Shown here: piece after piece, positions 38,238 to 42,425 of the stretch
Layout: each line of letters begins with the position of its first letter
How positions within the stretch are numbered: position 1 is the first letter of the stretch
IMG/VR virus record: IMGVR_UViG_3300049988_000286
Location: 64,001-128,000 of that record
Reading direction: 5' to 3' (one strand)
DNA length: 64,000 nucleotides
Source: a virus
Lineage: Duplodnaviria; Caudoviricetes
Made by a program: the position numbers and the translations under genes
The notes under the pieces: generated by a model
The model's input: only the letters and a program-made list of their open reading frames with translations
What the model was told of the DNA's origin: nothing
Databases searched by the model: none

Positions 38238-38314
38238 GCTCGTGTGGCTGAAATGGGAATGGCTACGGACACTAAATCCGTAAGATGTGGGTTCGATCCC
38301 CACGGCGAGCGCCA
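38238..38314 (+). tRNA. tRNA with anticodon CUA (amber suppressor-type)
   Basis: GCTCGTG/GGCGAGC acceptor (one mismatch), ACGGA-CACTAAA-TCCGT, GTGGG-TTCGATC-CCCAC, G73, CCA. Confidence 0.8.
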
Positions 38315-39330: not shown

Positions 39331-39729
39331 TCAGGCGGCGAGCGCTTCCTCGATCCGAGGGAAGAGCGCCATGTATTCGGTGCAGAACCGCGACCACTCC
39401 GGGGTCATGTCCGACATGGCGAGATGGAGGTTGCGATCGTGGATGAGCCAGCGAATCACCAACACGGGAACAAGCCGTTCGTCCAGCCGCTCTAAAATCT
39501 CGCGGGTGGGTGCCTGAAGGCCTCGGCACAGACGCTCCGATAGCTGGGGCTGTAACTGCCGCGCGTCCTCGGCGGAGATGCTGGTGGGGTATTCCTCAAG
39601 GAGGAATTGCAGCAGGTTGTTGAAGGTAGTCGTCACTGCGGCACGCAGATTGATCGAGGTGCCCAGCGCACCGGCATCGATGCGCGAAAGCGTATCGACC
39701 TTCGACAGAAGGATTTCGGTCCGGTCCAT
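39331..39729 (-). CDS. hypothetical protein
   Basis: MDRTEILL ORF converging on the family cluster. Confidence 0.6.
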   Translation of the reverse strand: MDRTEILLSKVDTLSRIDAGALGTSINLRAAVTTTFNNLLQFLLEEYPTSISAEDARQLQPQLSERLCRGLQAPTREILERLDERLVPVLVIRWLIHDRNLHLAMSDMTPEWSRFCTEYMALFPRIEEALAA

Positions 39730-39824
39730 GGCAGCGGCCCCCGTAGCGTTTCGTTTCACTAGCATAAGCCGCCATAACCGACAAGCACCGAAACGGTTGC
39801 ATCGTGTGTGGACATAAATAGCAG

Positions 39825-40492
39825 GATTTAATTTTGACACGAATCGATTCGGGATTCTACAACAGGACTCATAATACTCATGGCGTTATCGGGAGTCGCC
39901 ACCCCAACAACCCCAATGGACTTTGTAGGTGGCAGAGATGTCGCCGTGTTCCGGGCAGGGAAGCGGAGAGTAGCCGACCGGGAAGTGTTGCCGGGTAACA
40001 AGAGACACTAGAAAGAGGAGAGCCATGTCTTACTGACAACTCTCCGTGTTTGTCCAGTCAAGAACCATGCGGCTGGCAAACAAGCTTCTCCACACGAGAT
40101 AACCGTCGAGACCCGAAAGGGTCTGGGAAGGGCAGTAATGCAGGGTCACGGGCGACCACCTGCTAGGCTATAGACGCCGAAGCTGCTAGCGTGGCCATCA
40201 GAGACTCATAGGAATGATGTGCCTTCCCCCCGCTGGGTAGTTTGTCAGATCGATGATCTGTGCGCGTATTTCGCGAGCAAGCTAGTCAGCGGGGGGATAA
40301 AGTTCATCTCGATCTATAGGAATGATATTCATTTCTGTAAGCCATTATTAGCGAATTATCCCCGATAACGAGTGAGCCCGCGAACGAGTGAAGGGGTAAT
40401 TCAGGAGAGTGCCGTGGCACTCTCCTCCCAGTCAAGGTCTACAACACCTTGCAGGAACTACGGCAGACTAGACGGCGGATCGTTAATCCGAC
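39825..40492. ncRNA. candidate large structured non-coding RNA
   Basis: No credible ORF; several helices (AGACCC-GAAA-GGGTCT; CCCCCCGCTG...CAGCGGGGGG; GGAGAGTGCC/GGCACTCTCC); TAAATA at 39815. Confidence 0.4.
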
Positions 40493-40514
40493 GCCATATT
40501 GATTTTGGAAGACA

Positions 40515-40904
40515 TCAGATCAGGTCTGCTGCCGTGACATGTATAGGGACGGCGGACGCGATAGAGCCTATAATTTCAAGGCTCGCCTTCCAAGACTTAT
40601 CGCTGTCGGCCCACTCGGCGTGGACCTGTGTCTCACGCTTTCCTAACGCCCGAAAGACCACAGGCTCCTCGATACCGGGCATGTCGGGGATCGGCGAAAG
40701 GATGCGGGCGAGAGGGAGAGCAAAGGTGATATAATCGTCACCGTTGTCTTCGATATTCTCGGCATAATAATCGCTGACTTCTTCTATAGCCCAATAACTG
40801 GTCGGGTTAATGCCATCCCGAAGAATTGCTTCGAGGTTCTGTTTCGGGGTGACATGGTAAAGCACTTGTGACGCGCTCTCCACGAGTTTGATCCAATTTC
40901 GCAT
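40515..40904 (-). CDS. ART/Tpt1-like domain protein with MRxxIxLxE leader
   Basis: MRNWIKLVE; LYHVT...NL..IL..GI...Y...A; TAAATA-N5-ATG. Confidence 0.6.
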   Translation of the reverse strand: MRNWIKLVESASQVLYHVTPKQNLEAILRDGINPTSYWAIEEVSDYYAENIEDNGDDYITFALPLARILSPIPDMPGIEEPVVFRALGKRETQVHAEWADSDKSWKASLEIIGSIASAVPIHVTAADLI

Positions 40905-42350: not shown

Positions 42351-42425
42351 TGGTGGGAATACTCGGATTCGAACCGAGGACACACGGTTTTAGGGACCGC
42401 TGTTCTACCGCTGAACTATACTCCC
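42351..42425 (-). tRNA. tRNA with anticodon CUA (amber suppressor-type, Trp-like anticodon arm)
   Basis: GGGAGTA/TATTCCC, GTTC-AGCGGTA-GAAC, GCGGT-CCCTAAA-ACCGT, CTCGG-TTCGAAT-CCGAG, A73, CCA. Confidence 0.85.

What the first reader, a model, noticed from the sequence alone, without database searches (positions are those of the whole stretch)
39815..40492. ORF-free, helix-rich region of about 650 nt: candidate large ncRNA
Seen: by far the longest non-coding stretch in a gene-dense window. It begins just after a plus-strand TAAATA. It contains a GNRA-capped AGACCC-GAAA-GGGTCT, a long-range helix CCCCCCGCTG(G)GTAGTTTG...CAAGCTAGT-CAGCGGGGGG, a 10-bp GGAGAGTGCC/GGCACTCTCC hairpin, a repeated ATAGGAATGAT, and a GAGGAG-RBS mini-ORF (ATG TCT TAC TGA). 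Established: jumbo phages carry large structured RNAs (GOLLD, ROOL), often near tRNAs. Identity is unknown.
Basis: partly seen in the sequence, partly recalled or inferred. Interest (0 to 1): 0.6.

Follow-up and report, generated by a model that had tools for sequence, protein, structure and literature searches.

The report
New large phage RNA, twin hairpins
The gene-free gap holds a real gene for a folded non-coding RNA of about 565 bases from a family in no catalogue, kept in four diverged copies by this 500-kb phage and in single copies next to restriction-modification genes of Sphingomonas-type bacteria; its job is unknown, but it carries two hairpins that always evolve together.

Summary
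It matches no Rfam family. The 499,572-bp phage holds exactly four copies, 60-68% alike. I found ten further members: six in genomes of Sphingomonadaceae and other Alphaproteobacteria, one on a contig filed as viral, one on another assembled metagenome contig and two on short metagenome contigs.

On 12 members, 78 consensus base pairs are 90.8% paired, against 40-50% when the partners are slid. 46 pairs show compensatory changes. The 'RBS plus mini-ORF' is a covarying hairpin. An ORF that opens under TAG=Q exists in this copy only.

New here: two ~25-nt hairpin modules flank the C6/G6 hairpin and evolve in concert. They share 6-11 identical bases within each RNA but differ between RNAs, with no permutation out of 20,000 scoring as high. 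I found no complementary partner.

In six of eight bacterial-type loci the RNA lies near restriction-modification or DNA methyltransferase genes; three have a resolvase nearby. The phage has no resolvase, reverse transcriptase or CsrA.

Best reading: a trans-acting structured RNA of mobile-element conflict, with the twin hairpins setting its specificity. The function is not shown. This scan had already reported the sister copies in the same genome.

The parts
39834..39863 (+). Promoter-like upstream motif: TTGACA (39834-39839), 18-nt spacer holding the palindrome CGAATCGATTCG, then TACAAC (39858-39863)
   Evidence: The motif TTGACNCGANTC-N7-10-GATTCTA occurs exactly four times in the 499,572-bp genome, each time just upstream of one RNA copy and on its strand. 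It is also present upstream of metagenome members L028 and L030. The generic sigma-70 scan did not call it, because the second hexamer lacks the final T. That it is a promoter is inferred.
39868..40430 (+). The RNA gene, about 565 nt. The ends are approximate: the 5' end is placed about 7 nt after the -10-like hexamer, and the 3' end after the last conserved hairpin.
   Evidence: The profile HMM of the family aligns to window 39819-40427. Homology to the paralogues and to the bacterial members runs from the 5' helix to the terminal hairpin. No U-tract terminator follows.
39876..39971 (+). Closing helix of the 5' domain: ACTC (39876-39879) pairs with GAGT (39968-39971). It encloses a variable hairpin and the long conserved hairpin 39911-39960 (GATGGACTTTG...GCCGTGTTCCGGG).
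   Evidence: The helix changes on both sides between members: ACTC/GAGT, ATCC/GGAT, GTTC/GAAC, GCTC/GAGC (alignments). The inner hairpin is helices 2-4.
39977..39996 (+). Short conserved hairpin ACCGGG...TGTTGCCGGT
   Evidence: Helix 5, 89.7% paired. It is followed by the nearly invariant single strand CAAGAGACA (present in all but L028, L030 and L032).
40017..40045 (+). Two-step hairpin GGAGAG-CC-ATGTC...GACA-A-CTCTCC.
   Evidence: Helices 6 and 7. All 5 outer pairs have changes on both sides. The inner stem switches from TGTC/GACA to CGTG/CACG in L016 and L018, which removes the ATG.
40047..40084 (+). Hairpin GTGTTTGTCCAG...GCGGCTGGCAAACA with the conserved loop bases TCAAG...GCGGC
   Evidence: Helix 8: 12 pairs, 10 with changes on both sides, 91.6% paired.
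40109..40124 (+). GNRA-capped hairpin AGACCC-GAAA-GGGTCT, preceded by the invariant GATAACCGT
   Evidence: Sequence. Stem sequences differ between members while staying complementary: GAGATCG/CGATCT, GAGCCCC/GGGGCTC, GAACC/GGTTC.
40130..40189 (+). Nested helices GGGCAG...CTGCT and GCAGGGTC-ACGGGC-GACC-ACCTGC, with the conserved single strand GCTATAGACGCC
   Evidence: Helices 10 and 11, 97-99% paired, 8 of 14 pairs with changes on both sides.
40195..40219 (+). Twin module M1: CCATC-AGAGACTC-ATAGGAATGAT-G, a small hairpin CATC/GATG. The shared word X1 is 40208-40218.
   Evidence: See the full report.
40226..40296 (+). Long hairpin CCCCCCGCTGG...CAGCGGGGGG between the twin modules. The base of the stem is conserved, the tip varies in length and sequence, and the conserved ATAAAG follows.
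   Evidence: Helix 12: 16 pairs, 12 with changes on both sides.
40304..40327 (+). Twin module M2: TCATC-TCGATCT-ATAGGAATGAT-A. The shared word X2 is 40316-40326, 108 nt after X1.
   Evidence: In this copy only, X2 can also pair with TCATTTCTGTA just downstream.
40360..40396 (+). Hairpin CCCC...GGGG holding two AACGAGTGA repeats. A (G)AGTGA motif recurs at this place in most members.
   Evidence: Single-sequence folds and the alignment. Covariation was not quantified, because the alignment is poor here.
40403..40427 (+). Terminal hairpin AGGAGAGTGCC-GTG-GGCACTCTCCT with no U-run after it
   Evidence: A GC-rich hairpin of the form AGGAG-(GAGCG...CGCTC)-GA-CTCCT ends every member examined. It is not a canonical intrinsic terminator.

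Best explanation
SHOWN. Window ~39868-40430 (+ strand) is a gene for a ~565-nt non-coding RNA of a family absent from Rfam. It folds into at least 12 helices that are kept by compensatory changes. The phage keeps exactly four diverged copies, each behind the same private upstream motif. Single copies sit in mobile islands of Sphingomonadaceae and other Alphaproteobacteria, mostly beside restriction-modification or DNA methyltransferase genes.

INFERRED, roughly 0.5-0.6. The RNA is made from its own promoter and works in trans as a folded RNA (scaffold or catalyst), not as a leader of one particular gene. No neighbouring gene is shared among the phage copies, or between phage and bacteria.

INFERRED, roughly 0.3. 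Its specificity lies in two near-identical hairpin modules (M1, M2) that flank the long C6/G6 hairpin. They present the same 6-11 nt word twice, and that word differs from RNA to RNA. So they most likely engage two copies of one partner, or a symmetric dimer, that is not encoded in the RNA itself. The four phage versions would then be four specificities.

INFERRED, roughly 0.2. The bacterial copies sit in defence islands, and the phage lacks every protein found next to them. The phage copies may therefore act on a host-encoded partner as mimics or decoys. Known precedents are phage pseudo-ToxI RNA and RNA anti-CRISPRs.
For: RNA gene and fold:
- No Rfam match.
- Four copies found by BLAST and by profile HMM.
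- 12-member alignment A3: 78 pairs, 90.8% paired against 74.4% for shuffled and 40-50% for slid partners; 46 pairs with changes on both sides; covariation score 0.518 against 0.10-0.13.
- The many G-U pairs fit the + strand.

Not coding:
- The TAG=Q frame is open in copy A only.
- Indels between copies are not multiples of three.

Own transcription unit:
- The upstream motif occurs only at the four copies.
- The gene downstream of copy A is convergent.

Twin modules:
- The longest direct repeat in the 3' half falls in the same two alignment columns in 10 of 11 members.
- The same holds for L032, L035 and L036.
- Mean shared word is 8.9 nt within an RNA and 4.4 nt between RNAs; 0 of 20,000 permutations reach that.
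- L028 and L032, 71% alike, changed both modules in parallel.

Context:
- hsdM/hsdS follow the RNA in L016, L018 and L009.
- hsdR plus YgjP in L015.
- A D12 methylase in L035.
- A Dam-type methylase plus PADLOC PDC-S11 and PDC-S14 in L009.
- A resolvase within ~1.3 kb in L015, L009 and L032.
- No flanking protein is shared among the phage copies or with the bacterial loci.
Against: - No transcript data were available. The ends and the promoter are inferred, and the generic promoter and terminator scans call nothing.
- No partner for the twin word was found: not inside the RNA, not elsewhere in the phage genome, not in its 41 tRNAs above shuffled controls, and not above chance in four host genomes.
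- The concerted evolution could instead come from a copying process between the two modules, without any partner.
- A co-oriented ORF starts right after the RNA in copies C and D and in L015, L016, L017, L018 and L035, so a cis role is not excluded.
- The decoy idea rests on context only.
Confidence: 0.55

Rival explanations
1. Self-processing RNA. The conserved core is a ribozyme or intron-like machine that cuts, and perhaps rejoins, at the two identical modules. This releases or circularises the C6/G6 hairpin segment and leaves one hybrid module behind.
For: - Identical sequence at both junctions is what a cut-and-rejoin or copy-choice event needs.
- The long hairpin brings the two modules together (helix 12).
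- There are many invariant unpaired bases in a multi-helix core.
- No protein partner is conserved.
Against: - No match to any intron or self-cleaving ribozyme family in Rfam, even at E<=10.
- No internal guide complementary to the modules.
- None of the 14 members lacks the hairpin or has a single module.
Confidence: 0.1
2. Cis-acting leader. The RNA is a giant 5' untranslated sensor that controls the genes just downstream. In bacteria these are the methyltransferase or restriction operon.
For: - A co-oriented ORF begins within ~100 nt of the terminal hairpin in L015, L017, L016, L018, L035 and in phage copies C and D.
- No U-tract terminator follows the RNA.
- hsdM follows directly in L018.
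Against: - The downstream genes are unrelated to one another.
- Copy A, copy B, L009, L032 and L036 have convergent or distant neighbours.
- About 565 nt with 12 or more helices is far beyond known leaders.
- L016 and L018 have the same modules but HsdS proteins only 50% alike.
Confidence: 0.12
3. DNA-level element. The two co-evolving direct repeats are iteron-like or recombinase binding sites (origin, partition or resolution site), and the RNA fold is secondary.
For: - Repeats that are identical within a locus but differ between loci are how iterons behave.
- A resolvase lies within ~1.3 kb in L015, L009 and L032.
- The four copies are spread around the genome at 104, 257, 338 and 471 kb.
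Against: - Compensatory changes, including G-U pairs, across about 450 nt require selection on a single-stranded transcript.
- Cumulative GC skew is flat, with no turn at any copy.
- The phage has no resolvase, and no flanking gene is shared that could be the cognate binding protein.
- There are only two repeats per locus.
Confidence: 0.06
4. Template RNA for a reverse transcriptase that jumps between the two identical words, giving rolling-circle cDNA as in DRT2 defence systems.
For: Two identical short words bracket a ~66-141-nt unit whose ends are held together by a stem. The bacterial copies lie in defence islands.
Against: - No RVT_1 match anywhere in the phage, and no reverse transcriptase among the annotated neighbours in bacteria.
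- The unit length is a multiple of three in only 6 of 12 members.
- A stop-free concatemer exists in only 5 of 12 and is lost between close relatives L015 and L017.
Confidence: 0.03
5. Sponge for a CsrA/RsmA-type protein. The twin loops are two GGA sites for the two faces of a dimer.
For: Most modules show A(N)GGA in a small hairpin loop. L015 and L028 (ACAGGATG) resemble the published high-affinity CsrA site; that resemblance is from my own knowledge and was not tested here.
Against: - No CsrA gene in the phage or in five carrier genomes, while the control genomes ring.
- L016/L018, L030 and L036 have no GGA.
- A fixed protein would not make the flanking bases co-vary.
Confidence: 0.02
6. Protein-coding gene read with TAG as a sense codon. 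Two tRNA(CUA) genes flank it.
For: With TAG=Q, an ORF of 162 codons (39880-40368) opens. Suppressor-type tRNAs lie at 38238-38314 and 42351-42425.
Against: - The corresponding frame is closed in copies B, C and D and in all relatives, under the standard code, TAG=sense or TGA=sense.
- Indels are not in threes.
- Helices covary.
Confidence: 0.01

Closest known systems
ROOL and GOLLD RNAs (large 'ornate' RNAs of phages, prophages and bacteria; cryo-EM in 10.1101/2024.12.08.627333 = PMC12286853)
   Same: Several hundred nucleotides long, densely structured, carried by phages and other mobile DNA, a stand-alone gene, no known function and no obligatory protein neighbour.
   Different: No sequence or structure match: the Rfam models give nothing even at E<=10. 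It is shorter than ROOL and GOLLD as I recall their sizes (not checked here). It occurs as four diverged copies in one phage, lies beside restriction-modification genes in bacteria, and has twin co-evolving hairpins. Multimer formation is untested.
nutL/nutR boxB hairpins of lambdoid phages, and CRISPR repeats (RNA hairpins repeated within one genome that co-vary with their binding protein)
   Same: Two copies of a small hairpin that are alike within one genome but differ between relatives. That is the pattern of M1 and M2.
   Different: Here both copies lie in one RNA, 66-141 nt apart, around a fixed long hairpin. No N-like or Cas6-like cognate gene sits nearby. The comparison is from my own knowledge and was not tested.
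DRT2 defence ncRNA (template bracketed by two identical short motifs that allow template jumping)
   Same: Identical short words bracket a unit whose ends are brought together by a stem, in a defence-island context.
   Different: No reverse transcriptase in the phage or among the neighbours examined. No conserved endless reading frame in the concatenated unit.
Phage RNA mimics of host defence RNAs (pseudo-ToxI of phage TE; RNA anti-CRISPR solitary repeats)
   Same: A phage carries its own diverged copies of an RNA that in bacteria sits in defence loci.
   Different: Those mimics are short repeats of known systems. Here neither the host system nor its protein is known, so this is an analogy only.

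Membership tests
Any Rfam 15 family (including GOLLD, ROOL, OLE, raiA, HEARO, group I/II introns, RNase P, tmRNA, 6S) | Covariance-model score at or above the family's gathering threshold | tested here: not met
   cmscan of the whole window finds only four tRNAs. With permissive filters on 39600-40700, the only hit is a C/D snoRNA model at 15 bits against a threshold of 45, E=4.1.
This new family (four phage copies plus the Sphingomonadaceae/Alphaproteobacteria island and metagenome copies) | Conserved blocks in order: GATGGACTTTG, GCCGTGTTCCGGG, TAGCCGACCGGG, CAAGAGACA, GCTTC, GATAACCGT, GGGYRACCACC, GCTATARACGC | tested here: met
   All blocks are present in copy A. The family profile HMM gives E=9e-127 over window 39819-40427.
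This new family | Two like hairpin modules flanking a C-run/G-run long hairpin | tested here: met
   ATAGGAATGAT at 40208-40218 and 40316-40326, around 40226-40296. The arrangement is present in all 14 members.
Intrinsically terminated sRNA gene | GC-rich hairpin followed by a U-run | tested here: not met
   No terminator-like site in 39600-40700. The terminal hairpin is followed by CCCAGTCAAGG.
Type III toxin-antitoxin RNA (ToxI-like) | Tandem repeats directly upstream of a conserved endoribonuclease toxin gene | tested here: not met
   There are only two modules, 66-141 nt apart. The downstream genes are unrelated or convergent.
IS110-type bridge RNA or other recombinase guide RNA | Encoded beside its recombinase; loops complementary to donor and target DNA | tested here: not met
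   No resolvase in the phage. IS110-type and tyrosine recombinases were not searched in the phage; none was seen among the annotated neighbours. No match to the twin word or its complement elsewhere in the phage genome. A serine resolvase lies near three bacterial copies only.

The most novel reading that the evidence does not exclude
The twin hairpins are programmable address loops. One folded RNA presents the same guide twice and brings together two copies of a matching nucleic acid, or is cut and rejoined at the two sites by its own core. That would make it a new RNA-guided or self-processing device used in the conflict between phages and restriction-modification islands, and the phage's four versions would be four addresses.
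Probability: 0.12. Interest if true: 0.9.

Novelty: categorically new. Interest (0 to 1): 0.72.

Why it matters
Large, intricately folded bacterial and phage RNAs with no known job are few (OLE, GOLLD, ROOL, raiA). Each has opened new RNA biology once it was studied.

This one is a new family with three useful handles:
- It is kept four times over in a half-megabase phage.
- In bacteria it travels with restriction-modification genes.
- It has a built-in pair of co-evolving hairpins that looks like a specificity element, which gives a direct mutational test.

Two carriers are cultured strains (Sphingomonas sp. BK580 and Novosphingobium panipatense SM16), so the question can be taken to the bench.

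It is 'categorically new' as an RNA family, with no relative in Rfam. The general kind of thing, an ornate RNA on mobile DNA, has precedents.

Tried and rejected
Searches that gave nothing:
- blastn of copy A against phage and plasmid collections, and of four bacterial members against plasmids: no match.
- Several pattern scans gave only chance hits in coding DNA: L006, L007, L010-L014, L020-L023, L029.
- The 529-kb provirus behind L012 has no copy.

Partners for the twin word, all negative:
- Internal complement of 7 nt or more, or of 5 nt or more by alignment column.
- Column-wise covariation.
- A downstream competitor hairpin: significant in copy A only, Fisher chi2 26.3 on 28 df.
- The rest of the phage genome.
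- The other three copies and the 1.5-kb RNA region at 55-59.5 kb: no better than shuffled words.
- Phage tRNAs and tmRNA.
- Four host genomes.

Ideas rejected:
- Reading frame in the concatenated X1-to-X2 unit: not conserved.
- Reverse transcriptase, resolvase or CsrA in the phage: none. No CsrA in five carrier genomes.
- Pairing of the twin word with the 3' end of 16S rRNA. I considered this by eye and dropped it, because a fixed target cannot explain a word that varies between RNAs.
- Target-site duplication by a mobile hairpin. I dropped this because the duplicated part includes the module's 5' stem while its loop start has diverged, no empty site exists, and no other copies of the hairpin occur.
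- Origin of replication: flat GC skew.

Neighbouring genes: Pfam, PHROGs and NCBIfam gave no confident domain match for the phage neighbours or for the small bacterial neighbours.

Full report
WHAT IS THERE

The window is bases 64001-128000 of a 499,572-bp IMG/VR virus record. Between the minus-strand ORF 39334-39729 and the minus-strand ORF 40515-40904 lies a 785-bp stretch without a conserved reading frame.

- the GAAA-capped hairpin at 40109-40124;
- the C6/G6 long helix at 40226-40296;
- the 10-bp hairpin at 40404-40426;
- ATAGGAATGAT at 40208-40218 and 40316-40326;
- the GAGGAG...ATG TCT TAC TGA string at 40016-40036.

IT IS A REPEATED, CONSERVED ELEMENT

BLAST of the gap against its own genome finds three more copies, at 256.9, 338.3 and 470.7 kb, 69-73% identical over the matched core. 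A profile HMM of the family finds exactly these four and nothing else down to E=10. Over the full length the four are 60-68% identical, about as far from each other as from the bacterial members at 50-63%.

Exact-pattern scans of public collections, each confirmed with nhmmer, gave these further members:
- One IMG/VR contig, L008/L009. This 17.5-kb contig is also held as a metagenome contig (L025/L026), and matching copies lie on three other metagenome contigs.
- Four genomes: a Sphingomonadaceae MAG, Sphingomonas sp. BK580, an alphaproteobacterial MAG and Novosphingobium panipatense SM16.
- Two short metagenome contigs, L028 and L030.
- Three more genomes from samples of G002's order and family: L032, L035 and L036.

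About 1% of the 401 genomes sampled from G002's family carry it. Other pattern hits were chance matches in coding DNA.

IT IS AN RNA, NOT A PROTEIN GENE OR A PLAIN DNA SITE

Rfam gives nothing at gathering thresholds or at E<=10.

RNAalifold on the four phage copies already gave 108 pairs, 34 of them with compensatory change. On 12 members the consensus holds 78 pairs in 12 helices. Counting those pairs gives:
- 90.8% of cells paired, against 74.4% after shuffling the 3' letters (0 of 500 shuffles as high) and 40-50% with partners slid by 1-3 columns;
- 46 pairs with a change on both sides;
- covariation score 0.518, against 0.10-0.13 for slid partners.

Helices 8, 10, 11 and 12 are the best supported.

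A further 5' closing helix (ACTC 39876-39879 with GAGT 39968-39971) switches between ACTC/GAGT, ATCC/GGAT, GTTC/GAAC and GCTC/GAGC.

Its inner stem changes from TGTC/GACA to CGTG/CACG in L016 and L018, which destroys the ATG.

Two tRNA(CUA) genes flank the locus, so I tested recoding. With TAG=Q a 162-codon frame opens in copy A. No equivalent frame is open in copies B, C or D, or in any relative, under any of three codes. Indels between copies are not in threes.

Cumulative GC skew is flat over the whole genome, which gives no support to an origin.

TRANSCRIPTION UNIT (INFERRED)

Upstream of all four phage copies lies the motif TTGAC(A/C)CGA(A/C)TCG-N6-(G/C)GATTCTA. It occurs nowhere else in the genome, and it is also present upstream of L028 and L030. 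It reads as a perfect -35 hexamer (39834-39839) and, 18 nt later, TACAAC.

The bacterial members have different, AT-rich -10-like sequences at the same place. The generic scans call neither a promoter nor a terminator.

Every member ends in a GC-rich hairpin without a U-run. I place the RNA at about 39868-40430. The ends are not measured.

THE NEW OBSERVATION: TWIN MODULES THAT EVOLVE IN CONCERT

In each member, a ~25-nt module lies just before the C6/G6 hairpin (M1, window 40195-40219). A second one lies ~10-20 nt after it (M2, 40304-40327). Each module has a short 5' stem strand, a loop and a 3' stem strand.

- In 10 of 11 members the longest exact direct repeat in the 3' half falls in the same two alignment columns, with a different sequence each time: ATAGGAATGAT, AGGATGATG, ATGGGAAT, AAGGAAAG, AGGGAATGACC, ACAGGATGATG, AAGTGAGATG, ACAGGATGTGA.
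- L030, L032, L035 and L036 show the same arrangement with GTGTGA, ACGGAAA(T/C)GTGAA, ATGGGATG and TGGTGAT.
- The mean shared word is 8.9 nt within an RNA and 4.4 nt between M1 of one RNA and M2 of another. None of 20,000 permutations reaches the observed mean.
- The 5' stem strands co-vary between the two modules as well: CATC with CATC, CGTC with CGTC, and ACCAC (with TGGTG) in both modules of L036.
- L028 and L032, which are 71% identical, differ by the same substitution-plus-indel in both modules.

Something therefore keeps the two modules alike while letting the pair drift.

WHAT KEEPS THEM ALIKE?

I looked for a third sequence that both could pair with. All of these were negative:
- within the RNA;
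- just downstream, where only copy A has a hairpin partner and the family-wide Fisher chi2 is 26.3 on 28 df;
- elsewhere in the phage genome;
- in the other copies and in the phage's 1.5-kb RNA region;
- in its 41 tRNAs and its tmRNA;
- in four host genomes.

I then tested mechanisms that require two identical words:
- Template jumping by a reverse transcriptase: no RT in the phage, and no conserved endless frame in the concatenated unit.
- A serine recombinase site: no resolvase in the phage.
- A CsrA sponge: many loops read A(N)GGA, but three lineages lack GGA, and neither the phage nor five carrier genomes encode CsrA.

What remains:
- an outside partner, such as a nucleic acid from another replicon or a symmetric protein;
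- cutting and rejoining at the two sites;
- a copying process between the modules.

CONTEXT

The genes around the four phage copies have no confident Pfam or PHROGs match and are unrelated from copy to copy.

The eight bacterial-type loci look like this:

| Locus | Neighbours |
|---|---|
| L016, L018, L009 | hsdM and hsdS downstream on the RNA's strand (directly in L018, after one or more other ORFs in L016 and L009); HsdM about 90-92% identical across the three, HsdS only ~50% |
| L009 (also) | PADLOC candidates PDC-S11 and PDC-S14, and an HTH-Dam methylase |
| L015 | hsdR and a YgjP-like peptidase |
| L035 | a D12-class methylase |
| L015, L009, L032 | a resolvase within ~1.3 kb |
| L015, L017, L009 | a 146-149-aa protein of no known family next to the RNA |

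None of these proteins has a tblastn match in the phage. The RNA is therefore the only shared part. In bacteria it rides with restriction-modification cargo on islands that carry resolvase and candidate defence genes.

READING

The gene, the fold and the family are shown. That it acts in trans as a folded RNA is the simplest fit to the lack of any shared neighbour.

I read the twin modules as its specificity element. They would be two presentations of one word to a partner that comes in two copies. I read the four phage versions as four specificities, possibly aimed at host systems that use the island copies. These last steps are inference, at about 0.2-0.3 each.

The main rivals are a self-processing RNA that cuts at the two modules (0.10) and a cis leader of the downstream operon (0.12).

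RELATION TO EARLIER WORK OF THIS SCAN

Notes on the sister copies at 257, 338 and 471 kb had already reached 'new ~505-560-nt RNA, four copies, relatives on Sphingomonas-type restriction-modification islands, function unknown'.

I re-derived each of these points independently. I could not confirm the mention of plasmids: five blastn searches of PLSDB gave no match. Nor could I confirm 'related giant phages' beyond two short metagenome contigs that carry the phage-type promoter motif.

The twin-module co-evolution, the tests of its possible causes, and the rejection of the TAG-recoded ORF do not appear in the summaries of those notes that I could read.

Noticed in passing
window 38238-38314 (+) and 42351-42425 (-): Two tRNA genes with anticodon CUA (amber suppressor type; ARAGORN labels them Pyl) flank the RNA gene. 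They suggest that part of this phage's genes may read TAG as sense.
   Followed up: partly
window 39880-40368 (+): With TAG=Q, a 162-codon ORF opens across the RNA gene. It is not conserved in the three sister copies, so it is a trap for gene callers that use a recoded table.
   Followed up: yes
G000:C1:15556-15913 (outside the window): ARAGORN calls a permuted (two-piece, alphaproteobacterial type) tmRNA gene in the phage, besides 41 tRNA genes.
   Followed up: no
L009 (IMGVR_UViG_3300026142_000302), whole 17.5-kb contig: This contig is filed as viral, yet it carries hsdM (92% identical to that of Sphingomonas sp. BK580), hsdS, PADLOC candidates PDC-S11 and PDC-S14, an HTH-Dam methylase and a resolvase. 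It looks like a bacterial defence island or plasmid piece rather than a phage.
   Followed up: partly
L015:2552-3001 (+), L017:5345-5779 (-), L009:8063-8503 (+): A 146-149-aa protein with no Pfam, NCBIfam or PADLOC match lies next to the RNA in three loci (37-81% identical). It is directly downstream and co-oriented in two of them, so it is a candidate partner in bacteria. It has no tblastn match in the phage.
   Followed up: partly
window 39840-39851: The spacer of the promoter-like motif holds a perfect 12-nt palindrome, CGAATCGATTCG, in this copy only. The sister copies have CGACTCG plus unrelated bases.
   Followed up: no
window 40328-40338: In this copy only, TCATTTCTGTA right after M2 can pair with 10-11 nt of the twin word (p~0.01 against shuffles). 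Either module could therefore be sequestered. No equivalent exists in the other members.
   Followed up: yes
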